A stretch of 64,000 bases of DNA from Pseudomonadota bacterium (GCA_039029275.1 JBCCGL010000007.1:213428-277427), one strand, 5' to 3'; counted from the stretch's first letter, positions 45,581 to 59,721 are shown. A program made the numbers and translations. Notes: a model not told the origin generated them from the sequence alone.

Positions 45581-46927
45581 TCAGCATGCCTGCTCAATAC
45601 CTTGAATCATTTCGAGCAAATTTTTTTCTCTAAGCGTATTCGCTGCTCGCCTGAGGGTACCCACGCTTAATCCACTGCGCTGTGCGATGCTCAGCAAATC
45701 CTGTTCGCCATCGGCACAACTGAGCATCCATAAAACAGCTTTGTGAAATGCGTCGCGTCCTGCATCTCGCGAATACCCTTCATAAAGGTTGTGCGGCGCA
45801 AGAAAAGGCTCCGCGCCATTCAAAACGGTTTTGAATACCGCGTTTGCGTCTACCGCATGTAACATTGCGAGCACCTTGTCGTAGGAATCTTGCAGACTCT
45901 GAGGGCAGACGATGTCCATGTTGTCAGCCGAGGTGTGGTATTGCGGATACTCCCCGTACGGCGTCCGCATCACGCAACCGACAGGCAGATTGATACCTGG
46001 CGAGCAATACTGGCGCTCGTCGTGCCCCCAGGGCACAAATGGGCGAATGTCGTGATCGTCACCGCTTTGTTGCAAAATCAAATCTGCAGCCCTATCGAAC
46101 TCGCTTGTTGCATGCCGTGATTGCTTATAGTGTATATGACCACTGTCGCCTAAAAGGCCGATCGAATATCCGCCTTTGATCTTGTTGAGTTGATTTTCGT
46201 TTTTCGCAAGCCATGTAATCGAGCCGATTGTTGCGGGCACAAATACGAACCGAAAACTGTAGTGGCATTTTGACTGCAAAAGCGTTTTAGCCAAGAACGC
46301 CGATACTGCAATTCCTGAAACATTGTCGTTGGCAAGCGCTGGATGACAAATATGCGTGGAGACAATAATTTCCTCATTCGACGCGCCCGGTACAAGCACT
46401 TCGCCATAACTAAGAGAACCGTCGAAATGATCAGCATCAACAAATACCTTGAATCGCTCCCCGCTTCGGGCTTTCATATCGCGGTATTGCTGTCGCTTAA
46501 CACAAAAACCCCACGACGGCGTGAAGTACGATGTTCGATAAGGAACAGCATCGTCAAATTCATGAACTGTATATAAATGCGGCTCCAGTTCTTCCCAGGT
46601 GAAATATGCATCGACCGCCGTGCTGTAACTCATTAAATGCAAATTGGAGTTTTCGATATCGACAATCTTGCGACCGGTTGAGTCCGCGATATACGCAGCG
46701 TTGACTCGCCATTCTTTCGGCACAGTCCAGTCAAATACAGCCGTGCCAGTGGGAATTTCAAAAGTCTGGATTGGAACGTGCTCTCCAATCGCGTTTAGCG
46801 TCATCCGATTCCCATCGCCGGTGATACTGCGTGGAAGATCAAACAGTGTTTCCATGAACTCATAGATCGCGTCGCCTTCTACACTCGGTGAGGTTGCCGG
46901 ATGAACACTATGAGGTGAGTTTTTCAC
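45581..46927 (-). CDS. DUF4910 / COG4310 aminopeptidase-like (M28-like) domain protein with C-terminal winged-helix region
   Basis: 448 aa. Resembles the conserved unknown-function protein found in glycan clusters. Confidence 0.65.
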   Translation of the reverse strand: MKNSPHSVHPATSPSVEGDAIYEFMETLFDLPRSITGDGNRMTLNAIGEHVPIQTFEIPTGTAVFDWTVPKEWRVNAAYIADSTGRKIVDIENSNLHLMSYSTAVDAYFTWEELEPHLYTVHEFDDAVPYRTSYFTPSWGFCVKRQQYRDMKARSGERFKVFVDADHFDGSLSYGEVLVPGASNEEIIVSTHICHPALANDNVSGIAVSAFLAKTLLQSKCHYSFRFVFVPATIGSITWLAKNENQLNKIKGGYSIGLLGDSGHIHYKQSRHATSEFDRAADLILQQSGDDHDIRPFVPWGHDERQYCSPGINLPVGCVMRTPYGEYPQYHTSADNMDIVCPQSLQDSYDKVLAMLHAVDANAVFKTVLNGAEPFLAPHNLYEGYSRDAGRDAFHKAVLWMLSCADGEQDLLSIAQRSGLSVGTLRRAANTLREKNLLEMIQGIEQAC

Positions 46928-48234
46928 TGGTTATAGGTTCGGTACACAACCTGTGTTGGACCGCCAGAGAGATAACGATCAACCCCGTCGCTGATCGCAC
47001 GTGAGTAAACCGCTAGTGCTCCATCTACTGCTTCAATGGTTTTGTCGACATCATCGTTCGAATGGGAATAGCTGATAATGAATGACGGCCCGATAATACC
47101 GCGCTTGATGATTTCCTGCATAAACAGGGCACGATAATACTGCGATGATTTTTTGTCTTGATCTTTAGTTACATAGACAAGGCATTGGGGTTCGCCAACG
47201 ATTTGCACATAGTCTTGGAGATCGTGGTTTGCAATTACTTCATCCAACCCAGATTTCAGCCTCATGCCTTGATTACTCAGGGTTTCAATGACGGGTTCAT
47301 TCTTGTATGTATCCATGGTTGCGATAGCGGCTGCTAGCGCGTGAGTTTCTGCACCGTGCGTGGTTGATAACAAAAACACACGTGGGTGATTGTGATACAG
47401 GCCACCTCGTTCCATGTATTGCGATTTTCCTAACAGTGCTGAAACGGCAAACCCATTGCCTAACGCTTTGCCAAATGTCGATAGGTCAGGTTCGATATCG
47501 TAAAGAGACTGGCAGCCACCGTTGTGCCAGCGAAAACCCGTTATCATTTCGTCCAGAACAAACAAGGCACCGTTCCTATGGCAAAGATCTTTAACTCTGT
47601 GTAAAAAGTTATCTTTCGGCGGTTCGTATTTAGTCGGCTCCAAAATCACACAGGCGATTTCATTGGGGTTCGCGTTAAAGAGTGCCTCAAGGCCGTTTAT
47701 ATCATTGAAGGAAAATGTTAGAGAAAGCGATTTTGTTTGCTCTGGAATACCGGCGTCCATGGCAGTTTTTCCGATAAACCAATCATTCGTGGCAAAGAAC
47801 GGATGGTCAATGCAAAACGCTACCTTGTCGCGACCGGTCACCGCACGCGCGAGCTTTACAGCTGCAGTTGTCGCTGACGAACCATCTTTGACAAACTTAA
47901 CCATTTCCGCTGCCGGTACCATTTCTAAAAGTGACTGAGCGCAATAGGTTTCAATTGGGGCGGGGCGACAAAAATTAGCCCCATTTAGCATTTCATTCTG
48001 CGCGGCCTCTACCACTGGTGGATACGCGTGCCCCAAAGTGACCGCGCGGCAGCCCATTCCGTACTCGATATATTCGTTGTCATCGAAGTCCCATACGTGA
48101 CTACCCGATCCGCGTTTCAAGAATGCCGGTGAATTTTCCGGAAATTGGTCGTCGCCCTTCGCATATGTGTGACATCCACCTGGGATAATTTCGTGGCAGA
48201 TTTTTTGTAGGGACTTTGATTCATCTGACTGCAT
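46924..48234 (-). CDS. Class-III (GSA-aminomutase-like) PLP aminotransferase
   Basis: 436 aa, LDEMITGFR PLP-lysine region. Confidence 0.85.
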   Translation of the reverse strand: MQSDESKSLQKICHEIIPGGCHTYAKGDDQFPENSPAFLKRGSGSHVWDFDDNEYIEYGMGCRAVTLGHAYPPVVEAAQNEMLNGANFCRPAPIETYCAQSLLEMVPAAEMVKFVKDGSSATTAAVKLARAVTGRDKVAFCIDHPFFATNDWFIGKTAMDAGIPEQTKSLSLTFSFNDINGLEALFNANPNEIACVILEPTKYEPPKDNFLHRVKDLCHRNGALFVLDEMITGFRWHNGGCQSLYDIEPDLSTFGKALGNGFAVSALLGKSQYMERGGLYHNHPRVFLLSTTHGAETHALAAAIATMDTYKNEPVIETLSNQGMRLKSGLDEVIANHDLQDYVQIVGEPQCLVYVTKDQDKKSSQYYRALFMQEIIKRGIIGPSFIISYSHSNDDVDKTIEAVDGALAVYSRAISDGVDRYLSGGPTQVVYRTYNQ

Positions 48235-48256
48235 GATTAACTCGCTTTCAAGTTTT

Positions 48257-49408
48257 CTATCTGGTCAATCCATGTGCGCTACGGTATGCACGTTCAAACA
48301 CCTCGATCTGACCGAGGCTGAAATCACGCATGTTATGAGCTGAATCAGTGAAATAGTGCTTGTACCAGTCGACTGTATGTTGCAGCGCCTCGTCAATACC
48401 CCACACTGGCCGCCAGTGTAATTGCCATAGAGCTTTGTCAATCGTGAGGCGCAAAATCGTCGATTCATGCGGTTGCTCCGGATCGCTGCAATCTTGCCAA
48501 CTGCCGTGCCCCCAAACAGACAGAAAGCGTTCAACAATGTCGCGAACAGGCAGCTCGTTACCGGGCACGGGGCCAAAATTCCAACCACTGCAGTACGTTG
48601 GATCGTCAGAGCTTAAAAGTCGATCAGCTAATGTGAGATAGCCACTCAGGCATGAAAGCACATGCTGCCACGGTCTGTATGCACCCGGATTTCGAATATG
48701 TGCGGGTTTGTTTTGCGATATCGCGGCGATCAAATCAACCAGTAAGGCATCTGCCGTCCAATCACCGCCTCCAATTACGTTGCCTGCACGCGCACTTGCT
48801 AGTTTTACACCGTGTTCACTAATTTTTTCTTCGGGAAAGAAAGAAGAGCGGTAGCTTTGAACAACTATCTCAGTGCTACCTTTGCTTGCCCCGTAAGGGT
48901 CAGGTGATCCAAAGGCGTCTGATTCACGATAGCCCCACACTTGTTCACGATTTTCATAACACTTGTCGCTGCTCACAACAATAACGCTGCAAGGTTTGTC
49001 GAGACCCCGAACACCATCCAGCAGACATGCAGTACCCACTGTGTTTATATCGAACGTTTCGCGCGGTGAACGATAACCCTCTAGCACGACAGTTTGCGCT
49101 GCCATGTGAATTATCAAATCTGGGGTCGCCTCGCGCATCGCTGCATGCATCTTCGACTCATCACGGATATCACCTTCTATATGGCGTGCAAGCGTCGATT
49201 CGATCTGTGAGATCGAGAAGTGATTTGGCGTTGTTGGAGGGGTCCATGAATAGCCGGTTACCTCCGCGCCAAGACGTTGCAACCACAAACACAACCACGG
49301 GCCTTTAAATCCGGTGTGTCCGGTAACGAAAACCCGCTTACCTTTTATTGATTGAAACAACTGGTTTGACAATGTGATAAACCAAAATAGACTGATTGAA
49401 CTAAGCAA
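48257..49408 (-). CDS. rfbG: CDP-glucose 4,6-dehydratase (true start probably about 20 codons inside the ORF)
   Basis: KGKRVFVTGHTGFKGPWLCLWL. Confidence 0.88.
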   Translation of the reverse strand: MLSSISLFWFITLSNQLFQSIKGKRVFVTGHTGFKGPWLCLWLQRLGAEVTGYSWTPPTTPNHFSISQIESTLARHIEGDIRDESKMHAAMREATPDLIIHMAAQTVVLEGYRSPRETFDINTVGTACLLDGVRGLDKPCSVIVVSSDKCYENREQVWGYRESDAFGSPDPYGASKGSTEIVVQSYRSSFFPEEKISEHGVKLASARAGNVIGGGDWTADALLVDLIAAISQNKPAHIRNPGAYRPWQHVLSCLSGYLTLADRLLSSDDPTYCSGWNFGPVPGNELPVRDIVERFLSVWGHGSWQDCSDPEQPHESTILRLTIDKALWQLHWRPVWGIDEALQHTVDWYKHYFTDSAHNMRDFSLGQIEVFERAYRSAHGLTR

Positions 49409-50351
49409 TCTTTGGCGACACTCGCGACACGATGTTGTTCAATCGAGTTTCCGCGATGAGCCACCACTTCTTGTATTGAAATAGGTAAACAATAAGCCAG
49501 AAAATACACTTAAGTTTCGTAGACGCGTCGTTCCCACTGTCCATTGCAACCGACAAGTAGCCGGAAAACTGCCGCAACAGGGGGGTATGTATAATTCGTT
49601 TCCGAATAGCGGAATTTTTTGACTCACGTGTAGCGCCTGAAATTGAACCGGAGTGAACACGCTGGCTGAACAGCATCTGTGGTAAATCCCAAAAGCGTCC
49701 ATGTACAGCCAACTCAGCCATCATTAACTTTTCTGACCCGTAGAACGATTGCATTAGTCCGGTTTTACCCAATGCTTCGGACTTGAAAACGCCGGAGCAG
49801 CGCACGCCCCACCCTGACGACAGCAACACATCGCCAAAACGTCGGGAAAAATAGTGTGACGACCCATCGCGTCTGTGCCGGATGTTGTCCTTCTCTTGAC
49901 CACCATCCGTGGGGTCAGGAAAGCCCTTAATCTCGTTACCGTACTCGTTAATCGTCATCGTGCGCGAGTGACAACAAACAACGCTCAAATCGTTCTCCAG
50001 AACCTCTACGCACCTTGCCACGAACTCCGGATCACATAGATCATCACAAGCGGCCCACTTAAAATACTTACCATTGGACAAGTGGAAAACACGCGAGAAA
50101 TTCCAGTTTGACCCTTTGTTTTGACTCTCCCTGACGTAACGTATTCTTTTGTCCTTCTCCGCGTATAATCGACAAATCTCAGCTGTTTGATCGGTCGATG
50201 CGTTATCCGAAATCACGATCTCGATGTTGTCGTAAGTCTGGGCGAGCAATGAGTCGAGCGACTCTGATAGAAACTCATCAGCGTTGTACACCGGTACCCC
50301 GATACTGACCAGCGGTTGTTGTGAATTGCTCTGATTCATTTCAGTCCGCAA
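49401..50351 (-). CDS. Glycosyltransferase family 2
   Basis: VSIGVPVYNADEFL...ISDNASTD. Confidence 0.85.
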   Translation of the reverse strand: MRTEMNQSNSQQPLVSIGVPVYNADEFLSESLDSLLAQTYDNIEIVISDNASTDQTAEICRLYAEKDKRIRYVRESQNKGSNWNFSRVFHLSNGKYFKWAACDDLCDPEFVARCVEVLENDLSVVCCHSRTMTINEYGNEIKGFPDPTDGGQEKDNIRHRRDGSSHYFSRRFGDVLLSSGWGVRCSGVFKSEALGKTGLMQSFYGSEKLMMAELAVHGRFWDLPQMLFSQRVHSGSISGATRESKNSAIRKRIIHTPLLRQFSGYLSVAMDSGNDASTKLKCIFWLIVYLFQYKKWWLIAETRLNNIVSRVSPKIA

Positions 50352-50354
50352 TCG

Positions 50355-51848
50355 CTAGTACGCGTTCTCACCAACGATGCCGCGAAATGCAGTCATCACC
50401 AGAATCTTGATATCCAAACCAATTGACCAGTTATCAATATAGTAAAGGTCATGATCGACGCGTTTGCGCATGTCGGCTTCTTCCCACACTGCTCCACGCA
50501 ATCCATTAACCTGAGCCCAGCCGGTGATGCCTGGGCGTACGCGATGGCGCGCAAAATATCGTGTGACAACAGGCGCAAATTCGTCACCCAATGGCACTGG
50601 GTGTGGGCGGGGACCAATCAGCGACATAGTGCCTTGCAAGACGTTCAATATTTGCGGTAACTCATCAATACTGGTGCTTCGCAGAAACGCGCCAATTCGT
50701 GTAATCCGAGGATCGTCACGCAACGTTTGATCTTCACCTGAGACAGGTGCGGCGCCTTCTTTCATTGTGCGAAATTTGTAAACGAAGAATTCCTTGTTAT
50801 TGAATCCGTGACGAGGCTGCCTAAACAATGCAGGTCCCGGGCTGTCCAATCGAATGAGAATCGCCACTATCAGTAAGATCGGTGATAATAAAATGATTAG
50901 AATAAAAGCAAGGATTTTATCCTCTGCCAGTTTTAGCGCGTATCGCCATCCGTCCAGGGGGTGGAATACGATATCTAATGTTTTTACGTTGCCGATTGCA
51001 CTGTTAGTCGGGGTGGAGTAAATGAAGTTTTCAAGATTACTGCCAAGGCGAATGTTAATCGGTAATTCCATCAACTTTTCTATGATTTCACCGATACGCT
51101 TATTGGCAGTCCAAGGTAAAGTAATGACAATGTCGTCGACTCGATTACGACGGCAAAACTCTATAACGTCGTCAACCTTTCCCCATTTTTTCGATTGAAG
51201 TCGCCTCTCGAATCCCTCTCGCTGTATTCTGTCGTCAAAGACCCCTATTACTCGGTTCCAAGGCTCAGATTCGTAATCCAGACCATCGAGAAAATGATCG
51301 GCCTCGGCGCCACCTCCAATCAGGACAATACGGCGAACGAAACGACCATGCCGCGCTAACCAGTGCAATAGAAAAAACCAGACGATTCGGTGAACGCCGA
51401 AGAGAACCAATGAGGATGCAAACCAACTGAGCAACCACAGGCGTGAAAACTGATCAGAGATTTTTAGAAAAAAGGCGACCGCAGTGAATAGTAGAAACAC
51501 AACGCCGACGGAAAGTACTTGTCTCCAAACAAATCCAACCGGGCGCGAAATCGCATTAAAGCTATCCAACTTCCATAAAAAATTGGAAACTACAATCCCT
51601 ATCGAGATCATAACGCAGGCAGAAAAATGCTGACTAAGCAAGGCGTTTTCTACCCCAAGGATGACTACGAAGGAAGCAGCACCGGTCAGAATCAGGATCA
51701 GGAAATCGACAGTGAACACGGCAGCGATGATCACGGCTTCAGAATACGGCACCACCTTTCGTCTCCGTCTGGGCTTTATCTCATTGTCCGACGGCGAAAC
51801 GCTAAAGTCCTGACTCATGTAATGACTACCAAAATTTGCGCTGACCAT
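50355..51848 (-). CDS. Undecaprenyl-phosphate hexose-1-phosphate transferase (WbaP/WcaJ-type initiating enzyme)
   Basis: 497 aa. N-terminal TM block plus CoA-binding-like domain, C-terminal sugar-transferase domain DELPQ...SLIGPRP. Confidence 0.88.
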
Positions 51849-51891
51849 TTGCGGAATTCAAACCCGGAACACATACATCCAAATTCCATGA

Positions 51892-52878
51892 TCATGTAAC
51901 CGCTGCCACGCGCGGTTTCAGTTGAATTGACCTAAAATAGTCTATGGTCTTCGCGAGCCCATGCTCTATCCCAATTTCCGGTTTCCATTTCAGTTCCTGC
52001 TTAGCAAGCGTAATGTCAGGGCAACGACGCACCGGGTCATCTTGTGGTAGTTCTTCAAAAACGAGTTCCGAATTCGACGCGCATAATTCGATCACAAGCT
52101 CAGCTAACTCCCGTATAGTTTTTTCCGAGGGATTGCCTAAATTAACAGGGCCAGTGAACTTAGAATCGGTTTGTGCAATTTTGATAAATCCCTCGATTAA
52201 GTCATCAACATAACAAAACGAACGGGTTTGATTGCCCTCACCGAACACCGTCAGTGGCTCATTATTGAGAGCCTGAATTATGAAATTTGAAACCACACGC
52301 CCATCGTCCGGATACAGACGTGGACCGTAAGTGTTAAATATTCGGGCGACTTTAATTTCAAGATGGTGTTGACGGTGATAATCGAAAAACAAGGTTTCTG
52401 CGCAGCGTTTGCCTTCGTCATAGCATGCACGGGGCCCCACAGGGTTCACGCTACCGAGATAGCTTTCGTGTTGTGGATGGACTTCAGGGTCTCCGTAAAC
52501 TTCACTGGTGGATGCTTGTATTATTTTGGCGCCGACGCGTTTAGCCAGCCCGAGCATATTGATCGCCCCGTGAACGTTTGTTTTTACCGTTTGCGCGGGG
52601 TCGCTTTGGTAATGTATTGGAGACGCCGGGCACGCAAAGTTAAATATTTCGTCTACTTCCACATAAAGCGGGAATGTAATGTCGTGCCTCAACAGCTCAA
52701 AGCGCGTGTCGTCGAGTAAGTGAACAACGTTGTCGCGTGAGCCGGTATAGTAGTTGTCGACACAAAGGACTTCGCAATCCTCTGCAAGCAAACGCTCGCA
52801 TAAATGTGAGCCAAGAAACCCTGCTCCCCCTGTCACAAGCACACGCTTGCGCCCCCAGTTTCTTCGTCTGCTTGTCAT
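51892..52878 (-). CDS. UDP-glucuronate decarboxylase (UDP-xylose synthase, short-chain dehydrogenase/reductase family)
   Basis: [20 protein letters not shown] catalytic motif. Confidence 0.88.
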
Positions 52879-53402: not shown

Positions 53403-54479
53403 CTATTGCATTGCTTCGAGGGTCCACTCTTTAATGGATTGAATCGTGTGCTCGCTGTTAACACCGAAGTTGGGATTTATCACCAATGGCCCCGGGCGGT
53501 ACCCTTTGCTCTTAAGTCCTTTTTGAACGGAGTTGACCAGCAAAATGTCTTCGGCCACCGTTGTATTGCGATCCAGTTCAGCGACTTGTTTCGTGGTCTC
53601 AGACGCTTCGTCGCTGGTTGAAAACCAGTCGCGATGAACTCGCACGTTTTCATGATCCACGGGTTCCCACAGGTATGTATTGAGTTCGTTTCCCGGGTAC
53701 ACCTGGAATGAAAACATCGGCCACAAGAACCAAGAGCTGTAATCGTTCGCATGGGGCACACTGGCATCAAATGCATAGGTCTGTTTGTCACCTTTTGATA
53801 CGGTTTGGTGACGCAAACAGTACCCCTGCGGACGAATGTCGTAACACTTCGCGTCGATCACACCGCTCGTAAATGCCTGATGCACAGGCGCACAGTGATA
53901 ACACTCGGAATAGTTTTCAATGCTGACTTTCCAATTGCATGCTTCTTCTGCACTTACCCGCAAAACCGGCTTCAGGTCAGGCAGGTTTGGGAGGTATTCA
54001 GCGAGCTGCTCGCGAACTTGTGGATAGAGTTCATCCATTGTTGGTGCGCTATCATCGAGATTCAAAAACAAAAAGCCGTGAAAATTTTCCAGACGAACTG
54101 GAGTGAGGCAGACTTTTCCTTTGTCAAAGCCTGGTACTTTATCGGCGTGTGGCGCTCGAATTAACTCGCCGCTCAGTTGATAAGCCCACGTGTGATACGG
54201 GCATACAATGACGCTCGTATTTCCCTGCCCTTCCAAAAGTTCGTGCGCCCGGTGTTGGCACACATTATAAAAAGCGCGCAGAGCGTTGTCTTTGCCGCGC
54301 GAGATAAACACACTTTGATCACCGATGCGCGTCGTAATGTAGTCTCCAGGATTTCGCAGGCTCGAGACATGTCCGGCATATTGCCAGGTACGGTAAAATA
54401 ATTTCTCCTTTTCTTGCTCGAAAATCGCCGGATCGGTGTAATAGTGGTTTGGGAGTGCCGTGACTAATTCTGCGCTCAT
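53403..54479 (-). CDS. Rieske [2Fe-2S] non-heme-iron oxygenase alpha subunit, CntA/GbcA (carnitine or betaine C-N cleaving) family
   Basis: CQHRAHEL...CPYHTW Rieske. ENYSECYHC mononuclear iron. NSVQKGLKSKGYRPG (cf. CntA ESVQRGLKSRGYRG). Confidence 0.85.
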   Translation of the reverse strand: MSAELVTALPNHYYTDPAIFEQEKEKLFYRTWQYAGHVSSLRNPGDYITTRIGDQSVFISRGKDNALRAFYNVCQHRAHELLEGQGNTSVIVCPYHTWAYQLSGELIRAPHADKVPGFDKGKVCLTPVRLENFHGFLFLNLDDSAPTMDELYPQVREQLAEYLPNLPDLKPVLRVSAEEACNWKVSIENYSECYHCAPVHQAFTSGVIDAKCYDIRPQGYCLRHQTVSKGDKQTYAFDASVPHANDYSSWFLWPMFSFQVYPGNELNTYLWEPVDHENVRVHRDWFSTSDEASETTKQVAELDRNTTVAEDILLVNSVQKGLKSKGYRPGPLVINPNFGVNSEHTIQSIKEWTLEAMQ

Positions 54480-54499
54480 TGGTCAATCTCTACAAACTG

Positions 54500-55384
54500 T
54501 TATGCCTTACCGTCGTCATAGACGCCTGTTTCAAAGCGAAGTTGGTGAAAGCCTTCGATGCTCGCGACAACTTCTGGTTCGGAGTCCGCGACGATAAACG
54601 CCGTGAGTGTTTCCAGCAATGCTAAAGTCGCCATGTGCGAAGGGAAAAACTGCGGAGTCTTGTTCGGTGCTATGAAGACGTAATCTGCCCCAGCGACAAT
54701 CGGAGCAGATAGGCTATCGGTAATCACCGCCGTCGTCGCGCCCTTTGATTGCGCGTATGCCGTCGCTTCAATTACATCCGTGCGATAAGGCGCAAACGTC
54801 ATCGATAGCAACAGATCGCTTTTACCCGTTTTGACCATATCGTCAATTGGCAGACTACCAATTCGCGGAACCTGCACCAGGTTGTCTAACGCCATTCGCG
54901 TCACGTACCAGAAGTTGTGCGCCATCGAGTAAACCGCTCCAACCCCGAGCACATATGTAAGTCGTGACGCGACGATTGCGTCAGCTAACTCTTTGAGTTT
55001 CGCCACATCGATTCCGGCGAACAGTTCTTCCGTATTCGAAATACTTGCGGCTGCCATCTCGGCCAACAGGTCGCTGTGACTGTGTCCTTTTTTTATTGAC
55101 TGTAACCAACGAGCGCGATCAGGAAAGCTCTCACCCGCCTCAAGTAGCGACTGGCGAAATGGCTCGCGCATCCCTTCGTAACTGTCAAATCCAACAGCAC
55201 GTGCAAGCCTGACCAAGGTGTTCGGATGAACGTTGGCGTCGTTGGCAACATGCCGCATGGAATTGATTCCGATCTCATTGCCGTTATCAAGCAGATACTG
55301 TGCCGCACGCTTGAGCTGTGGACTTAACTCAGGATACGAGTCAGCGACTTTTTCCAGAACGGATTGTGCGGTCAGGGCTGGCAT
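54500..55384 (-). CDS. RpiR/MurR-family regulator (HTH + SIS)
   Basis: 294 aa. Confidence 0.85.
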   Translation of the reverse strand: MPALTAQSVLEKVADSYPELSPQLKRAAQYLLDNGNEIGINSMRHVANDANVHPNTLVRLARAVGFDSYEGMREPFRQSLLEAGESFPDRARWLQSIKKGHSHSDLLAEMAAASISNTEELFAGIDVAKLKELADAIVASRLTYVLGVGAVYSMAHNFWYVTRMALDNLVQVPRIGSLPIDDMVKTGKSDLLLSMTFAPYRTDVIEATAYAQSKGATTAVITDSLSAPIVAGADYVFIAPNKTPQFFPSHMATLALLETLTAFIVADSEPEVVASIEGFHQLRFETGVYDDGKA

Positions 55385-55484
55385 ATCACTCCATTATGGT
55401 ACACACGTACTAATTTGTATTGACAATTATTCAAATGTATCAATACTACGCGACCAAGTCGAGTTTTTTTAGCGCAAAATTGAG

Positions 55485-57926
55485 TTGTTATTCCCTATGC
55501 AAAGTCACGCACGAGTCGTCATTATCGGTGGTGGAATTATGGGCACCAGCCTCTTGTACCATTTGGCCAAAGTAGGCTGGACAGATAGTGTGCTGATCGA
55601 AAAAGCGGAGCTCACCTCAGGCTCAACATGGCATGCAGCTGGTCAAGTCGGCCACTCAACATCGCACTGGGGACTTGCTTTGATGAGTAAGTACGCCAGC
55701 GAAACCTACTCAACAATCGAGACGGAGACTGAGCAATCCGTTAGCTGGCACGGCAGCGGTAGTTTGCGGCTGGCGTATAACAGCGACGAGGTGGACTGGC
55801 TCAAATACACGGTCGCGATTGGCAGGGGTGCCGGTAACGAGATGGAGATCATCAGTCCTGACGAGATTCGGAAGTTGCATCCGTTCTACAATCTCGATGG
55901 CGTCATCGCGGCGCTGCACACACCAAACGACGGACACGCCGACCCGGCGGGCGCCGCTTTCGCATTCGCCAAAGGTGCGCGCATGATGGGTGCCACGGTG
56001 ATTCGTCACAACCGCGTTACCAATACAGTGCAACTGCCCAACGGCGAGTGGAAAGTTGAAACCGAAAAAGGCGACATCACCTGCGAACTGGTGGTCAACG
56101 CTGGGGGCACCTACGCGCGACAGATGGCTGAATGGGTCGGGTATGACTTGCCCAGTACGAATATGACTCATCACTATTTCGTCACTGAAAACGTACCGGA
56201 ATTCGCTGACATCGATAAAGAACTGCCCGTTGTTCGTGATGACAGACTCGTTTCAGGTTACATCCGCATGGAGCAAAAGGCAGGCCTTATCGGTATTTAC
56301 GAAAAAGCCAATGCGAACACCGTGTGGGATGATGGGACGCCTTGGGAGTCGGAAAACGAACTATTTGATGCGGATTACGACCGCATCATGCCGTGGTTGG
56401 AAAACGCGATGGATCGTATGCCGATACTCGCCGACCTTGGCATCAAGCGCACCGTCCACGGGGCGATCACGCACCCTCCCGATGGAAATATGTTGCTTGG
56501 ACCTGCCCCCGGCCTGAAAAATTACTGGTGCTGCTGCGGATCCCAGGTCGGGATCGCATGGGGCCCTGGCGCAGGCAAGTACCTTGCGCAATGGATGGTT
56601 CACGGCGCAGCAGACATCAATATGCGCGAGTTCGATCCGCGTCGTTACGGAGACTTCGCTAACCGCGATTATCAAATCACGAAAGCCAAAGAAGACTACC
56701 TGTTGCGTCACGAAATCCCGTTTCCCGGGTTTAACCGAACCGCAGGCAGGCCGGTCAAAACAACCGCAATCTACAACCGCTTAATCGATCAAAACGCCAT
56801 TTTCGAAGAAGTCTTCGGTTGGGAGCGCCCGCGCTGGTTTGCCACGGGCGATACGCCTCGTGAAGATGTGCACAGCTTTCGACGCAGCATCGTGTTCGAT
56901 AAGGTAAAAGAAGAATGCCTTGCAGTTCAAAATCGCGTCGGGTTAATCGACCTGACCGCCTTCGCCAAGATTGAGATTTACGGAGCAGATGCGGAGCGTT
57001 TTCTGGATCGCCTGGTAGCCAATAAACTGCCACAAAAGAGCGGCGGGATTGTACTTAGTCACTTTTTAAATGAAAAAGGCACGATCGAATCGGAAACATC
57101 GATCTGCAAGCTTGGCGACAACCACTACTTTCTGGTTTTCGCAGGATTCTTTGAACTGCGCATCCACGACTGGCTCATTCAACACAAGCGCGAAGATGAA
57201 AACGCCACCATTGACGTGGTTTCAGAAAACTTTGGCGTGCTGTCACTCAATGGTCCACGCGCACGCGATGTCCTGGCCGCCGTTTGTGACGACCCGCTCG
57301 ACAACGCCAACTTTCCCTGGCTAACGGCGCGCAACATCATAATCGATGGCGTTACCGTGCGTGCGCTGCGTGTCTCCTATGTCGGAGAACTGGGATGGGA
57401 GCTGTACGTGCCCATTATCAATCTGATGATTGTTTATGATGCGCTTAAAGCGGCAGGAGAACCGCATGGCATGGTCAATTTCGGATCGTTCGCCCTGAAT
57501 GCAATGCGCATGGAAAAAGCATTCAAGGGCGCAGGCGAACTCACCTCGGAAGTTACCCTGCCCGAGGCCGATGTCATGCGTTTTGTTAAGGTGGACAAGG
57601 GCGAGTTTCATGGACGCGACAAAACTGTCGAAAGTATGGATAAGCCGCTCCCCTGGATTTGCGTGTACCTTGAAGTCGACGGTGGCGATATTGACTGCGT
57701 CGGGTCCGAAACGGTTTTTCATAATGGTGTTCGTACCGGGCAAGTTGCAACCGCGGGATATGGGCACCGCGTCGAGAAAAGCCTCGCCTTTGCGTTCGTA
57801 AAGCCAGAGCACTCGGCTCCAGGTACTGAACTGGAAGTCCTTTTACTCGACGGAAAAGTACCCGCGCGCGTGCTCGCTGAACCCGTGTATGACCCCAAGA
57901 GCGAACTGCCGCGAGTCGATGCCTGA
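55485..57926 (+). CDS. Dimethylglycine/sarcosine-dehydrogenase-like enzyme (FAD DAO domain + GcvT aminomethyltransferase domain)
   Basis: 813 aa, VVIIGGGIMGTS FAD motif. Confidence 0.9.
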   Translation: MLFPMQSHARVVIIGGGIMGTSLLYHLAKVGWTDSVLIEKAELTSGSTWHAAGQVGHSTSHWGLALMSKYASETYSTIETETEQSVSWHGSGSLRLAYNSDEVDWLKYTVAIGRGAGNEMEIISPDEIRKLHPFYNLDGVIAALHTPNDGHADPAGAAFAFAKGARMMGATVIRHNRVTNTVQLPNGEWKVETEKGDITCELVVNAGGTYARQMAEWVGYDLPSTNMTHHYFVTENVPEFADIDKELPVVRDDRLVSGYIRMEQKAGLIGIYEKANANTVWDDGTPWESENELFDADYDRIMPWLENAMDRMPILADLGIKRTVHGAITHPPDGNMLLGPAPGLKNYWCCCGSQVGIAWGPGAGKYLAQWMVHGAADINMREFDPRRYGDFANRDYQITKAKEDYLLRHEIPFPGFNRTAGRPVKTTAIYNRLIDQNAIFEEVFGWERPRWFATGDTPREDVHSFRRSIVFDKVKEECLAVQNRVGLIDLTAFAKIEIYGADAERFLDRLVANKLPQKSGGIVLSHFLNEKGTIESETSICKLGDNHYFLVFAGFFELRIHDWLIQHKREDENATIDVVSENFGVLSLNGPRARDVLAAVCDDPLDNANFPWLTARNIIIDGVTVRALRVSYVGELGWELYVPIINLMIVYDALKAAGEPHGMVNFGSFALNAMRMEKAFKGAGELTSEVTLPEADVMRFVKVDKGEFHGRDKTVESMDKPLPWICVYLEVDGGDIDCVGSETVFHNGVRTGQVATAGYGHRVEKSLAFAFVKPEHSAPGTELEVLLLDGKVPARVLAEPVYDPKSELPRVDA

Positions 57927-57947
57927 ATCACAAAGTGAGTTCACAAT

Positions 57948-59306
57948 ATGCTACTAGCAAGCCATTACCCCAGCGACAACCCAGAATGGGTCTCTGAGAT
58001 CCATGCAAACCTGTATTTGCAGAGCTGGTCCAAGCAAGGGGCCAGACCGCGTGTTATTACCGGTGGCAAGGGAAGCTGGTTTTGGGACAGTGACGGCAAC
58101 AGGTACCTCGATTTCCAATCACAGCTGGTCAACCTGAACCTGGGTCACCAACACCCAAAAATCGTTCAGGCCATTAAAGATCAGGCCGACAAACTTTGTT
58201 ACATCGGTCCCGCGATGGGGTCTGATGTGCGCAGCGAACTCGCGGCGATGATCGCTGACATCACACCCGCTAACATAACATCAACGTTTTTTACCAGCGG
58301 TGGAGCAGCGGCCAATGAGTCCGCCATTCGCATAGCTCGCCACTTTACCGGTCGTACCAAAGTCATCGCCCGATATCGCAGCTATCACGGCGCAACAGGC
58401 GGATCCTTGAGTTTGACCGGCGACCCGCGACATCACCTCACCCGCGCTGACATGCCGGGGGTCGTGCGAATGTTGGATCCGTATGTTTATCGTTTGCCGT
58501 CCGGTCACACGGACCCCGCGCATTGTCCTATCTGTCAGGGTGCTCCGCATCTGGAAGAAATCCTGATGTACGAAAACCCTGACACCGTCGCTGCGGTTAT
58601 CCTGGAACCTGTCGTGGGTACCAACGGGATCATCGTGCCGCCGGATGGTTACATGCAGTCAATCGCCGAGACCTGCAAAAAGTATGGCATTTTGCTGATA
58701 GCCGACGAAGTTATGGCTGGGTTCGGGCGCACGGGCACGTGGTTTGCTGTCGATCACTGGGGAATTGAACCAGACATCATTACCGCAGCGAAAGGTATCA
58801 ATTCAGGGTACGTGCCGCTCGGCACCATGAGTGTGTCGCGTGAACTCGCAGAATGGCTGCAGGATTACTCCCTACCCGCCGGATTGACGTATGCCGGCCA
58901 TCCATTGGCCTGTGCGTCCGGTATCGCTGCAATACGCGCAATGGAGGAGGAAGACACCCTCGGTAATGCCACTCGTCTCGGTGAGAAAATGCGTGGGCGC
59001 CTGCGCGAAATGGCGAATCATCATCCCTGTATTGGTGACATTCGCGGCCTTGGCATGTTTAACGGTATCGAGTTGGTCAAAGATCGTGACACCCGCGAAC
59101 CGCTCGTCCCATTTGCTGCCAAAGGCGATGCGGCGGCACCGATGAACGTGATCATGAAGGCCGGAATGGAAAACGGTTTGTATTTGTCATGTTTCTCAAA
59201 TGTGATTCGTCTTACTCCCCCTCTAAATATCTCCGAAGAAGATATGTTTATGGGTTTGGATATTCTCGATAAGATACTGGCCATCGGCGACGAAGAGTGC
59301 GCCTAA
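57948..59306 (+). CDS. Class-III omega-aminotransferase (PLP)
   Basis: 452 aa, LLIADEVMAGFGRTG. Confidence 0.9.
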   Translation: MLLASHYPSDNPEWVSEIHANLYLQSWSKQGARPRVITGGKGSWFWDSDGNRYLDFQSQLVNLNLGHQHPKIVQAIKDQADKLCYIGPAMGSDVRSELAAMIADITPANITSTFFTSGGAAANESAIRIARHFTGRTKVIARYRSYHGATGGSLSLTGDPRHHLTRADMPGVVRMLDPYVYRLPSGHTDPAHCPICQGAPHLEEILMYENPDTVAAVILEPVVGTNGIIVPPDGYMQSIAETCKKYGILLIADEVMAGFGRTGTWFAVDHWGIEPDIITAAKGINSGYVPLGTMSVSRELAEWLQDYSLPAGLTYAGHPLACASGIAAIRAMEEEDTLGNATRLGEKMRGRLREMANHHPCIGDIRGLGMFNGIELVKDRDTREPLVPFAAKGDAAAPMNVIMKAGMENGLYLSCFSNVIRLTPPLNISEEDMFMGLDILDKILAIGDEECA

Positions 59307-59340
59307 TCGATAGATATCTGCAAAGAACACGAGCATACCT

Positions 59341-59721
59341 ATGAAAGATGATCTTTTTGAAATTGGCTTACACCAGCGCAAAAGCACCCTGGGCGCTGAA
59401 TACGTCGAAAAAAACCTTGCCGCGGCGGATGATTTCACGCGACCGTTTCAGGAGGCAATGACCGCATGGTGCTGGGGTTTTGGATGGGGTGACGACGCTA
59501 TCGAACCCAAGACTCGATCAATGATGAATTTGACCATGATTGGCGCGCTTGGGAAGATGCATGAGTGGGAAATCCATTGTAAAGGTGCACTTAACAATGG
59601 TGTCAGCAAAGAGGAAATTCGCGCGATCGTGCACGTTATAGGCATTTACTGCGGTGTACCGCAAGCGCTGGAGTGTTTTCGCGTAGCGCGCAAAGTGCTT
59701 GAAGAGGCAGGCGAGATTTGA
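59341..59721 (+). CDS. Carboxymuconolactone decarboxylase (CMD/AhpD-like) family protein
   Basis: 126 aa. Confidence 0.8.
   Translation: MKDDLFEIGLHQRKSTLGAEYVEKNLAAADDFTRPFQEAMTAWCWGFGWGDDAIEPKTRSMMNLTMIGALGKMHEWEIHCKGALNNGVSKEEIRAIVHVIGIYCGVPQALECFRVARKVLEEAGEI

What the first reader, a model, noticed from the sequence alone, without database searches (positions are those of the whole stretch)
53403..59721. Putative quaternary/N-methylated amine demethylation island
A CntA/GbcA-family Rieske oxygenase shows very close motif agreement with carnitine monooxygenase. It lies downstream of an RpiR regulator and is divergent from three genes. These are a dimethylglycine-dehydrogenase-like FAD/GcvT enzyme, an omega-aminotransferase and a CMD-family protein. 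The combination predicts stepwise handling of a methylated amino compound down to an omega-amino acid and then an aldehyde. Candidates are beta-alanine betaine, gamma-butyrobetaine or a carnitine-like osmolyte. No reductase partner (CntB/GbcB-type) for the Rieske component is present in the window.
Basis: partly seen in the sequence, partly recalled or inferred. Interest (0 to 1): 0.6.

Follow-up and report, generated by a model that had tools for sequence, protein, structure and literature searches.

The report
Core of an unassigned methylamine-breakdown cluster
The five genes are real and form a stripped-down copy of a widespread marine bacterial gene cluster, the one that in roseobacters also holds the DMSP lyase gene dddQ; it most likely breaks down an N-methylated osmolyte that nobody has yet identified.

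Summary
All five genes are present at the stated coordinates, and no Rieske reductase lies anywhere in the 64 kb window. The unit is not a chance neighbourhood. Among 68 related loci with enough flank, the Rieske gene sits divergent to a DMGDH-like gene in 68, follows an RpiR gene in 65, has a class-III aminotransferase in 61 and a CMD gene in 57. Most of these loci also carry MR/MLE, Zn-ADH, ALDH and often the cupin DddQ. The window therefore holds a reduced core of the "dddQ neighbourhood", whose native substrate is unknown in the literature I could search.

The Rieske protein is nearest to CntA, at 37-38% identity, with fold TM-score about 0.8. It keeps all metal ligands, the bridging Glu, the Cys pair and the cation-pi Tyr. 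It forms its own clade and keeps none of CntA's six substrate-contact residues. It is not a GbcA/Stc2-type demethylase: it has Tyr where they have Asn, and scores 168 against a cut-off of 670.

The specific chain of stepwise demethylation to an omega-amino acid, and the named substrates, are not established. The missing reductase is typical of the family.

The parts
53403..54479 (-). Rieske non-haem-iron oxygenase alpha subunit, 358 aa. It belongs to a distinct, uncharacterised family within the CntA-like (group Va) branch of quaternary-ammonium Rieske oxygenases.
   Evidence: It carries PF00355 and PF00848. The best PDB match by sequence is CntA 6y8j at E 2e-78 over the full length, against 3e-39 for Stc2, N-terminal part only. 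The best fold match is also CntA, TM about 0.8. Its own clade has 100/100 bootstraps, and the grouping with CntA/YeaW has 97/100. All ligands and Y190 are conserved, but 0 of 6 CntA pocket residues are kept.
54500..55384 (-). RpiR/MurR-family regulator (HTH_6 plus SIS), immediately upstream of the Rieske gene and probably co-transcribed with it.
   Evidence: Pfam hits. No NCBIfam equivalog is reached. An RpiR gene precedes the Rieske gene in 65 of 68 related loci. In many of the loci shown the two ORFs overlap by 4 nt.
55385..55496 (.). Divergent control region. It holds the inverted repeat GTATTGA-N16-TCAATAC (55417-55446), which overlaps a sigma-70-like promoter for the + strand operon (55420-55447). 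It corresponds to boxes conserved across alpha- and gammaproteobacterial loci.
   Evidence: Inverted repeat. Promoter-like site TTGACA-16-AATACT. Conserved boxes ACATTTGTACC..CGTCAATCATGAAT..ACAAATGTA in the same intergenic region of many loci. Binding by RpiR is inferred, not shown.
55485..57926 (+). Dimethylglycine-dehydrogenase-like flavoenzyme (DAO, FAO_M, GcvT, GcvT_C). It is predicted to carry out oxidative N-demethylation with transfer of the C1 unit to tetrahydrofolate. The start is TTG 55485 or ATG 55497.
   Evidence: Domains. Match to human DMGDH 5l46 at E about 1e-158 over residues 4-798, with the ELTSGSTWHAAG flavin-attachment motif aligned. Present divergent to the Rieske gene in 68 of 68 loci.
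57948..59306 (+). Class-III (omega-type) PLP aminotransferase, called type B here (PRK06062 subfamily). It is a dedicated component of this cluster.
   Evidence: Aminotran_3 domain. NCBIfam PRK06062 scores 542 against a cut-off of 472. The best PDB match is the taurine:2-oxoglutarate aminotransferase 6jix at 4e-111. Homologues at 76-84% identity are numerous. Four of them, chosen by aminotransferase similarity alone, all lie in the same cluster.
59341..59721 (+). CMD-family protein, 126 aa, PcaC-like but below the PcaC cut-off. Its role is unknown. It is extremely conserved.
   Evidence: PF02627. TIGR02425 scores 114.9 against a cut-off of 155.7. Present in 57 of 68 loci, with a median of 85% identity to the window protein while the Rieske proteins share about 55%.

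Best explanation
This is a self-contained catabolic divergon for an N-methylated onium or amine osmolyte, most likely a quaternary ammonium compound. It is the minimal core of the conserved "dddQ-neighbourhood" cluster found in marine Alpha- and Gammaproteobacteria.

Proposed mechanism:
1. The RpiR-type regulator sits on the operator that overlaps the divergent promoters until an unknown effector releases it (inferred).
2. The Rieske oxygenase holds the cationic head group of the substrate against Tyr190 and hydroxylates a carbon bonded to the nitrogen. Its electrons come from a reductase encoded elsewhere. The hemiaminal then collapses, cutting one C-N bond. The nitrogen-bearing product stays in the pathway as a tertiary amine. 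The reaction type is inferred from family and context. Whether the carbon attacked is a methyl, giving formaldehyde, or a chain or ring carbon, giving an aldehyde, is open.
3. The DMGDH-like flavoenzyme removes the remaining N-methyl groups oxidatively and passes them to tetrahydrofolate (strong homology inference).
4. The class-III aminotransferase interconverts the resulting primary amine and a carbonyl (homology inference).
5. The CMD protein performs an unidentified, strongly constrained step.

The substrate is not carnitine and not glycine betaine, and its identity is unknown.
For: - Gene content and coordinates.
- Conservation of the unit in 68 well-flanked loci from many genera: DMGDH-like 68/68, RpiR 65/68, aminotransferase 61/68, CMD 57/68.
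- Aminotransferase homologues picked blind all fall in the same cluster.
- The Rieske protein is closest to CntA in sequence, fold and tree. It has the group-Va cation-pi Tyr defined in PMC7948474.
- The DMGDH-like protein has the full four-domain architecture and an aligned flavinylation motif.
- In relatives an ALDH follows the Rieske gene directly, as in the cnt operon. A few loci have a GFA formaldehyde-related gene there instead. Both fit an aldehyde-releasing oxygenation.
- The operator-like boxes are conserved across classes.
- The cupin in the larger clusters is DddQ. Lei et al. (bioRxiv 10.1101/161257) argue that its DMSP lyase activity is promiscuous and that its neighbourhood serves betaine catabolism.
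Against: - No experiment bears on any step.
- The substrate is unknown, and no transporter is consistently linked.
- No electron donor is present in the window or in most relatives, so the oxygenase's activity rests on an unlinked partner.
- Known group-Va enzymes cleave off or oxidise the carbon chain rather than demethylate. If TMA were released, the DMGDH-like enzyme would have no substrate.
- The window lacks the MR/MLE genes present in 61 of 68 relatives and the ALDH, so the pathway here may be incomplete or may differ.
- The pocket mapping rests on a pairwise sequence alignment, not on a structure.
- The AlphaFold model is only moderately confident: pLDDT 77.8, and poor over residues 321-343.
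Confidence: 0.6

Rival explanations
1. The Rieske enzyme acts as a GbcA-like N-demethylase on an omega-trimethylammonio acid such as beta-alanine betaine, gamma-butyrobetaine or a carnitine-like compound. The DMGDH-like enzyme removes the next methyl groups, and the aminotransferase converts the omega-amino acid to an aldehyde.
For: - The window's aminotransferase is of the omega type and is nearest to a taurine:2-oxoglutarate enzyme.
- The ALDHs in related loci score best against betaine-aldehyde, aminobutyraldehyde and succinic-semialdehyde dehydrogenase models.
- A GFA gene follows the Rieske gene in some loci, which fits formaldehyde release.
- The order Rieske, then DMGDH-type enzyme, mirrors glycine betaine catabolism (established knowledge).
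Against: - The protein has Tyr, not the Asn of the demethylases.
- It never groups with Stc2-like proteins in 100 bootstraps.
- Its GbcA model score is 168 against a cut-off of 670.
- All six CntA contacts for carnitine and gamma-butyrobetaine are replaced.
- The scheme does not explain the MR/MLE, DddQ, ADH and CMD genes of the full cluster.
- No BCCT or betaine transporter is linked.
Confidence: 0.2
2. Cyclic or alpha-amino-acid betaine route. The substrate is a proline-betaine or hydroxyproline-betaine-like compound. The CntA-like enzyme hydroxylates the ring carbon next to N+ and opens the ring to an N,N-dimethyl amino-acid semialdehyde. The DMGDH-like enzyme then demethylates the N,N-dimethyl alpha-amino acid, which is a direct analogue of dimethylglycine. 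The class-III aminotransferase or the ALDH handles the semialdehyde.
For: [quoted passage not shown]
- Lei et al. proposed proline or hydroxyproline betaine for the dddQ neighbourhood.
- The commoner aminotransferase type is like glutamate-semialdehyde aminomutase.
- An OCD/mu-crystallin gene lies near the gamma-type locus L038.
- Arg283 is invariant where CntA has Tyr295 and could hold an alpha-carboxylate.
- Group Va chemistry is C-N cleavage at a non-methyl carbon.
Against: - The window itself has no MR/MLE, ALDH or proline-related gene.
- The ring-opening reaction has no precedent.
- The known proline-betaine pathway uses Stc2/HpbB-type enzymes instead.
- The MR/MLE score is 312 against a cut-off of 500, so their function is not assigned.
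Confidence: 0.15
3. A true CntA-like lyase reaction. The enzyme releases trimethylamine and an aldehyde from a carnitine-like substrate, and the divergent genes are functionally separate.
For: - CntA is the nearest characterised enzyme in both sequence and fold.
- The cation-pi Tyr and the Cys pair are conserved.
- An ALDH follows the Rieske gene in relatives, as in the cnt operon.
Against: - Identity is only 37-38% and the clade is separate.
- None of the six pocket residues is kept.
- There is no cntB, no BCCT transporter and no tartrate or malate dehydrogenase as in cnt loci.
- The 68/68 pairing with a DMGDH-like gene would be unexplained, since TMA is not a DMGDH-type substrate.
Confidence: 0.07
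4. An aromatic or N-methylpyridinium ring-attacking oxygenase, as the public annotation "aromatic ring-hydroxylating dioxygenase" implies. It would feed a beta-ketoadipate-like route through the MLE-family and CMD-family enzymes.
For: - Public names.
- The MLE and CMD families are those of the beta-ketoadipate pathway.
- N-methylpyridinium compounds are also quaternary and abundant at sea.
Against: - There is no beta subunit.
- Aromatic dioxygenases score at most 109 bits, against 267 for CntA.
- PcaC is below its cut-off.
- Homarine is degraded by a different operon, hom, SPO3188-3192.
- Trigonelline uses TgnAB.
Confidence: 0.05

Closest known systems
Carnitine monooxygenase CntAB/YeaWX (Acinetobacter, Enterobacteriaceae)
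   Same: It has the same fold and length. It shares the Rieske and 2-His-1-Asp ligands, the bridging Glu, the CxxC pair next to the iron and the cation-pi Tyr, and it has no beta subunit. It is the nearest characterised relative.
   Different: Identity is 37-38% and the clade is separate. All six substrate-contact residues differ, with invariant Gln259, Arg283, Asp303 and Thr307 in their place. There is no adjacent CntB-type reductase, BCCT transporter or malic-semialdehyde branch. Instead it is locked to a DMGDH-like gene.
Glycine betaine catabolism GbcAB then DMGDH/DgcAB then sarcosine oxidase, and stachydrine demethylase Stc2/Stc4 or HpbB/C
   Same: The logic is the same: a group-V Rieske oxygenase makes the first attack on a quaternary amine, and a flavin- and THF-dependent N-demethylase follows.
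   Different: The Rieske protein belongs to the other sub-branch, with Tyr instead of Asn. It reaches 168 of the 670 bits needed for GbcA and groups with Stc2-like proteins in 0 of 100 bootstraps. There is no partner reductase and no sarcosine oxidase. An aminotransferase and a CMD protein are added.
The dddQ gene neighbourhood of roseobacters (Todd et al. 2011; Lei et al., bioRxiv 10.1101/161257)
   Same: The Rieske, RpiR, DMGDH-like, aminotransferase and CMD families are orthologous, and the divergent architecture and operator-like boxes are the same. The cupin in those loci is DddQ.
   Different: The window lacks DddQ, all MR/MLE copies, the Zn-ADH and the ALDH. It lies in a gammaproteobacterial-type chromosome context. 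The passages I read name the MR-like and DMGDH-like neighbours and do not mention the Rieske gene.
Taurine:2-oxoglutarate aminotransferase Toa (Bifidobacterium kashiwanohense, PDB 6jix)
   Same: It is the best solved relative of the window's aminotransferase (E 4e-111). Several pipelines carry that name over to close homologues.
   Different: Five of five examined contexts of this aminotransferase subfamily are the Rieske/DMGDH-like cluster, with no tauABC, xsc or pta. In most loci the slot is filled by a non-orthologous GSAM-like aminotransferase.

Membership tests
Carnitine monooxygenase CntA | Rieske CxH...CxxH cluster, His-His-Asp iron site and bridging Glu205 | tested here: met
   C74/H76/C93/H96, H195/H200/D311 and E192 align with CntA C86/H88/C106/H109, H208/H213/D323 and E205.
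Carnitine monooxygenase CntA | Tyr203 cation-pi residue (group Va signature, PMC7948474) | tested here: met
   Y190 is in ENYSECYHC. It is invariant in 28 family members.
Carnitine monooxygenase CntA | Substrate-contact residues Tyr225, Phe258, Asn270, Tyr295, Tyr315, Phe319 | tested here: not met
   They align to C212, D246, Q259, R283, D303 and T307, so 0 of 6 are kept. The mapping is from sequence alignment only.
Carnitine monooxygenase CntA | Orthology-level similarity and clade membership | tested here: not met
   Identity is 37-38%. The query family is monophyletic in 100/100 bootstraps. CntA, YeaW and a third protein form a separate clade in 92/100.
Carnitine monooxygenase CntA | Adjacent CntB/YeaX reductase, BCCT transporter and semialdehyde dehydrogenase | tested here: not met
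   These genes are present in the A. baumannii and K. pneumoniae loci. They are absent from the window.
Carnitine monooxygenase CntA | Formation of trimethylamine from carnitine or gamma-butyrobetaine | not testable with these tools
   This needs an enzyme assay.
GbcA / Stc2 N-demethylases (group Vb) | Score at or above the curated GbcA equivalog cut-off | tested here: not met
   NF058607 scores 168.5 bits against a cut-off of 670, and only residues 8-203 match.
GbcA / Stc2 N-demethylases (group Vb) | Asn at the CntA-Tyr203 position, and clade membership | tested here: not met
   The query has Tyr, while the Stc2-like sequences have ENNRE. The query groups with Stc2-like proteins in 0 of 100 bootstraps.
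GbcA / Stc2 N-demethylases (group Vb) | Adjacent GbcB/Stc4-type reductase | tested here: not met
   Stc4 lies next to Stc2 in S. meliloti. There is no hit in the window.
Group V (quaternary-ammonium) Rieske oxygenases | Closer to CntA/Stc2 than to aromatic ring hydroxylases, alpha-only, with a CxxC pair beside the iron site | tested here: met
   CntA scores 267 bits and Stc2 138, against at most 109 for aromatic enzymes. The fold ranking gives the same order. C193/C196 are present. There is no beta-subunit gene nearby.
Dimethylglycine dehydrogenase (DMGDH) family | DAO, FAO_M, GcvT and GcvT_C architecture, with the flavin-attachment His motif | tested here: met
   All four domains are present. 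ELTSGSTWHAAG aligns with ELTAGSTWHAAG of human DMGDH over a full-length match. That this His carries the flavin is recalled from the literature.
Dimethylglycine dehydrogenase (DMGDH) family | Specificity for N,N-dimethylglycine | not testable with these tools
   No curated equivalog model scored, and the best NCBIfam hits are far below their cut-offs. The genomic context differs from glycine betaine catabolism.
Taurine:2-oxoglutarate aminotransferase | Genomic association with taurine uptake and sulfoacetaldehyde processing | tested here: not met
   No tauABC, xsc or pta is seen in the window or in the four blind-picked contexts. All of them are the Rieske/DMGDH-like cluster.
4-carboxymuconolactone decarboxylase PcaC | Score at or above the TIGR02425 cut-off, and pca gene context | tested here: not met
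   The score is 114.9 against a cut-off of 155.7. There are no pca genes in the window.
dddQ-neighbourhood cluster | Rieske of this family after RpiR, divergent to DMGDH-like, with a class-III aminotransferase and a CMD protein | tested here: met
   All five are present in the window. Their frequencies in 68 loci are 68, 65, 68, 61 and 57.
dddQ-neighbourhood cluster | MR/MLE gene(s), Zn-ADH, ALDH and DddQ cupin | tested here: not met
   tblastn with seeds for all four finds nothing in the 64 kb window. In the relatives they occur in 61, 49, 28 and 23 of 68 loci.

The most novel reading that the evidence does not exclude
The Rieske family would catalyse a reaction not yet described for group-V enzymes: oxidative C-N cleavage within the carbon skeleton of a cyclic or branched betaine, for example opening proline-betaine-type rings to N,N-dimethyl amino-acid semialdehydes. 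Its electrons would come from a non-CntB donor. The product would pass to a DMGDH paralogue specialised for N,N-dimethyl amino acids other than dimethylglycine. The five-gene window cluster would then define the catalytic core of the pathway for which DddQ is an accessory enzyme, which would answer what the dddQ cluster is really for.
Probability: 0.15. Interest if true: 0.75.

Novelty: new variant of a known kind. Interest (0 to 1): 0.5.

Why it matters
The Rieske family is large. There were 3209 database clusters at E<=1e-20 and more than 590 matched stretches among species-representative genomes. It is carried by abundant marine Rhodobacterales, Kiloniellales, Hyphomicrobiales and Halieaceae-type Gammaproteobacteria. 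Public records name it only as an aromatic dioxygenase, and its partner aminotransferase is sometimes named a taurine transaminase.

The cluster it belongs to contains dddQ, a gene used worldwide as a marker of DMS production. The activity of DddQ on DMSP has been argued to be a side reaction. Finding the true substrate would add a route for methylated nitrogen osmolytes to marine carbon and nitrogen budgets, and it would recalibrate how dddQ counts are read.

The window shows which genes persist when the cluster is pared down: Rieske, DMGDH-like, aminotransferase, CMD and RpiR. That gives a small, testable set for heterologous reconstitution.

Tried and rejected
- **Glycine betaine or GbcA assignment.** Rejected on the score (168 against 670), the Tyr/Asn position and the tree.
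- **CntA orthology.** Rejected on identity, clade, pocket residues and context.
- **The proline-betaine Hpb cluster of Paracoccus.** It is a different gene set, with a LysR regulator, HpbB/C Rieske plus reductase and HpbA flavoenzyme, and with no RpiR, DMGDH-like gene or aminotransferase.
- **Homarine catabolism.** The published hom operon is unrelated (SPO3188-3192, no Rieske gene).
- **A hidden reductase.** The motif scan and tblastn with five probe reductases found none in the window. Only 6 of 89 family loci have a CntB/Stc4-like gene, and it lies at least 5 kb away. Two loci have a GR-type ferredoxin-reductase-like gene.
- **A consistently linked transporter.** None was found. ABC systems of different families occur sporadically.
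- **Literature.** Searches on the gene combination, on dddQ plus Rieske, on R. pomeroyi locus tags near dddQ, and on dddQ plus proline betaine found no paper that assigns the Rieske gene or the cluster.
- **Horizontal transfer judged from base composition.** The island genes are only slightly richer in G+C than their flanks (0.50-0.54 against 0.47-0.52), which is not decisive.
- **ORF caller.** My first greedy ORF caller produced shadow ORFs in high-GC loci (clusters c10, c11, c14-c17, c19). I therefore recounted co-occurrence by tblastn with seed proteins.

Full report
**What is there**

The region holds five ORFs exactly as described.
- On the minus strand, an RpiR/MurR-type regulator (54500-55384; HTH_6 plus SIS) lies 20 nt upstream of a 358-aa Rieske oxygenase alpha subunit (53403-54479; PF00355 plus PF00848).
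- Divergent from them on the plus strand are three genes.
  - An ~810-aa protein with the DAO, FAO_M, GCV_T and GCV_T_C architecture of dimethylglycine and sarcosine dehydrogenases (55485 or 55497 to 57926).
  - A class-III aminotransferase (57948-59306).
  - A 126-aa CMD-family protein (59341-59721).

The flanks are unrelated. On one side is a deoxysugar/exopolysaccharide cluster. On the other are a coiled-coil protein, ndk, rlmN and a TPR protein. The rest of the window is ordinary chromosome, with uvrB, pheT, thrS, purB, comEC and an msbA-like gene. The exact Rieske and aminotransferase proteins are on record from a 285-kb contig of a MAG labelled only "Pseudomonadota bacterium".

**The Rieske protein**

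- Against solved structures the best sequence match is carnitine monooxygenase CntA, at E 2e-78 over the full length. Stachydrine demethylase Stc2 matches only the N-terminal 200 residues (3e-39). Aromatic dioxygenases score lower still.
- An AlphaFold model (pLDDT 77.8) finds CntA first, with TM about 0.8, then Stc2.
- The NCBIfam GbcA equivalog scores 168.5 bits against a cut-off of 670.
- Mapping the CntA residues described by Quareshy et al. (PMC7948474) through the alignment shows that every cofactor-related residue is conserved. These are the Rieske ligands C74/H76/C93/H96, the iron ligands H195/H200/D311, the bridging E192, the Cys pair C193/C196, and Y190, which equals CntA Tyr203.
- That Tyr is the residue those authors use to separate group Va from the N-demethylases of group Vb. 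Group Va holds CntA, choline monooxygenase and OxyBAC, and attacks a chain carbon. Group Vb holds GbcA and Stc2, which have Asn there. In my alignment the query family reads ENYSE, CntA reads DNYME and the Stc2-like proteins read ENNRE.
- None of the six CntA residues that contact carnitine or gamma-butyrobetaine is kept. They align to C212, D246, Q259, R283, D303 and T307. Q259, R283, D303 and T307 are invariant in 28 diverse family members.
- A neighbour-joining tree rooted on BenA gives four results.
  - The query family is monophyletic in 100 of 100 bootstraps.
  - It joins a Leisingera protein in 91.
  - It joins the CntA/YeaW clade, excluding Stc2-like proteins, in 97.
  - It never joins the Stc2-like clade.
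- Identity to CntA and YeaW is 37-38%.

So the protein is a member of the quaternary-ammonium Rieske group on the CntA side, but it is neither CntA nor a GbcA/Stc2-type demethylase.

**The unit is conserved and has a wider identity**

The family is large. There were 3209 clusters at E<=1e-20 and more than 590 confirmed stretches in species-representative genomes.

I fetched 80 loci plus annotated plasmid and genome examples. I then counted neighbours by tblastn with seed proteins in the 68 loci that had enough flank.

| Gene | Loci out of 68 |
|---|---|
| DMGDH-like | 68 |
| RpiR | 65 |
| Class-III aminotransferase | 61 |
| MR/MLE (often 2-4 copies) | 61 |
| CMD | 57 |
| Zn-ADH/quinone-oxidoreductase family | 49 |
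| ALDH | 28 |
| Cupin | 23 |
| Amdase-like plus Sulfotransfer_5 pair | 20 |

The typical order is AT, MLE(s), cupin, ADH and DMGDH on one strand, divergent from RpiR, Rieske, (ALDH) and CMD on the other.

The cupin is DddQ. Its best PDB matches are the DddQ structures 4b29, 5jso and 4la2. Lei et al. (bioRxiv 10.1101/161257) described the conserved dddQ neighbourhood as containing a mandelate-racemase-like and a dimethylglycine-dehydrogenase-like gene. They argued that DddQ's DMSP lyase activity is promiscuous and proposed a role in proline or hydroxyproline betaine catabolism. Those passages do not mention the Rieske gene, and I found no later paper that assigns the cluster.

The window therefore carries a reduced version of this cluster. 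It has the five most conserved parts except MR/MLE, and none of MR/MLE, ADH, ALDH or DddQ occurs anywhere in the 64 kb. Similar reduced forms occur in other gammaproteobacterial MAGs (L003-L005, L038, L066, L081).

**The other components**

- *DMGDH-like protein.* It aligns with human DMGDH over residues 4-798 (E about 1e-158), including the ELTSGSTWHAAG motif. That this His carries the covalent flavin is from memory of the DMGDH literature.
- *Aminotransferase.* It passes the PRK06062 subfamily cut-off (542 against 472). Its best solved relative is a taurine:2-oxoglutarate aminotransferase. Some pipelines transfer that name to close homologues.
  - Most loci carry a different, GSAM-like aminotransferase in the same slot, only about 28% identical to the window's.
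  - Four homologues of the window's type, chosen only by aminotransferase similarity (76-79% identity, from Shimia, Tateyamaria, Kiloniella and a Rhodobacteraceae genome), all lie in this same cluster.
  - The aminotransferase step is thus required, but it is supplied by two non-orthologous enzymes, and the taurine name is not supported by context.
- *CMD protein.* It is PcaC-like but below the cut-off (114.9 against 155.7). It is 85-90% identical to CMDs of loci whose Rieske proteins are only about 55% identical.
[quoted passage not shown] The solved relatives of the MR/MLE protein include the hydroxyproline-betaine epimerase HpbD (1e-63).

**Electron donor**

- The window has no ORF with a plant-type ferredoxin motif.
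- tblastn with CntB, YeaX, Stc4 and BenC gives no hit in the window. A GR-type ferredoxin reductase probe gives none either.
- This holds for most of the family. Only 6 of 89 loci have a CntB/Stc4-like gene, at least 5 kb away.
- Two loci, Kiloniella L101 and Mesorhizobium L008, have a Pyr_redox_2/Reductase_C gene beside the aminotransferase.

The donor is therefore unlinked and its type is unknown.

**Regulation**

The 100-112 nt divergent spacer contains an inverted repeat, GTATTGA-N16-TCAATAC (55417-55446). It overlaps a sigma-70-like promoter facing the DMGDH-like operon. The equivalent spacers of alpha- and gammaproteobacterial loci share boxes such as ACATTTGTACC, CGTCAATCATGAAT and ACAAATGTA. 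The most frequent 8-mers occur in 47-58 of the 77 spacers examined. This fits a conserved operator for the RpiR protein. Binding itself is inferred.

**How it most likely works**

*Shown by sequence and comparative data:*
- The five genes form a conserved, co-regulated unit.
- The oxygenase has an intact Rieske/iron apparatus and a cation-pi Tyr.
- The flavoenzyme has the full machinery for oxidative N-demethylation to tetrahydrofolate.

*Inferred:*
- The oxygenase makes the first attack on a carbon attached to a quaternary (or at least cationic) nitrogen.
- The nitrogen-bearing product is passed to the DMGDH-like enzyme, which would explain the 68/68 pairing.
- The de-methylated amine, or an aldehyde produced on the way, is handled by the aminotransferase.

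*Open:* it is not settled whether the oxygenase removes a methyl as formaldehyde, or cuts a chain or ring C-N bond to give an aldehyde.
- The GFA gene behind the Rieske gene in a few loci favours formaldehyde.
- The group-Va signature favours a chain or ring cut. So does the ALDH directly behind the Rieske gene in many relatives, as in cnt operons.

*Substrate class:* this is also open.
- The MR/MLE, DddQ and OCD genes of the fuller clusters point to proline-like or other alpha-amino-acid betaines.
- Carnitine and glycine betaine themselves are unlikely.

**Limits**

- The loci are the 80 best of more than 590 and come from species representatives, so the frequencies are approximate.
- The tree is neighbour-joining on 18 sequences and lacks choline monooxygenase, OxyBAC and a verified GbcA.
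- The pocket mapping comes from a pairwise alignment.
- No experiment exists for any component.

**Verdict**

The general interpretation is supported, and the specific pathway and substrates are not. The main addition is that this is the conserved core of the unassigned dddQ-neighbourhood cluster, built around a distinct CntA-like Rieske family that normally has no linked reductase. I rate it a new variant of a known kind, of moderate interest.

Noticed in passing
window 59341-59721; loci L042, L045, L069, L078, L081, L088: The CMD protein is 85-90% identical between this gammaproteobacterial-type window and alphaproteobacterial loci, while the neighbouring Rieske proteins share only about 55%. 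Either the constraint on it is unusually strong or it has been exchanged recently.
   Followed up: partly
window 57948-59306; L007, L055, L078, L081, L098-L101: Two non-orthologous class-III aminotransferases fill the same slot of the cluster, one GSAM-like and one Toa-like (PRK06062). Close homologues of the window's type are named "taurine--2-oxoglutarate transaminase" by some sources, yet every context examined is this cluster.
   Followed up: yes
L101 10378-11601; L008 5976-7211: A Pyr_redox_2 plus Reductase_C (ferredoxin-reductase-like) gene lies next to the aminotransferase in two loci. The two are 46% identical to each other. In Mesorhizobium it is followed by ETF alpha and beta genes. 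It may indicate the electron-donor type for this reductase-less Rieske family.
   Followed up: partly
L067 11085-11510 (also L011, L037, L060): A GFA (glutathione-dependent formaldehyde-activating, PF04828) gene sits directly downstream of the Rieske gene in a few loci. It hints at formaldehyde release.
   Followed up: no
L001 6533-8961: In the closest relative of the window cluster (Rieske 82% identical), the DMGDH-like gene is split into separate DAO and GcvT ORFs. A DUF559 gene is inserted before the aminotransferase. A second Rieske gene and a GDPD gene lie about 9 kb away.
   Followed up: no
window 55417-55447 and the equivalent spacers of L006-L088: An operator-like inverted repeat overlaps the promoter. 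Box sequences are conserved across bacterial classes in the DMGDH/RpiR spacer.
   Followed up: partly
window 46924-52878: This is a deoxysugar/exopolysaccharide cluster. It holds a GSAM-like aminotransferase (NF004856, 694 bits), a CDP-glucose 4,6-dehydratase, a GT2 glycosyltransferase, a WcaJ-type phosphotransferase and an NAD epimerase/dehydratase. A C-methyltransferase and a DUF4910 protein lie upstream. It is unrelated to the finding.
   Followed up: no
L021, L024, L026, L033, L037, L067 and others, between Rieske and ALDH: About 20 of 68 loci carry an extra pair, an Amdase-like (Asp/Glu-racemase superfamily) gene and a Sulfotransfer_5 gene. Roseovarius loci add BKACE, an FrhB-like gene, a porin and two Sulfotransfer_1 genes. 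No function is assigned.
   Followed up: no
L092 7926-10751: A different CntA-like Rieske gene (33-35% identical to the query) in Alisedimentitalea lies between a GlxA-family regulator and the choline sulfatase gene betC. It is another unassigned group-Va member.
   Followed up: no
window 13303-16761: This large ORF of 1152 aa carries TPP_enzyme_C, POR and DUF6537 domains, so it looks like an indolepyruvate/2-oxoacid:ferredoxin oxidoreductase-like fusion. It is not linked to the finding.
   Followed up: no
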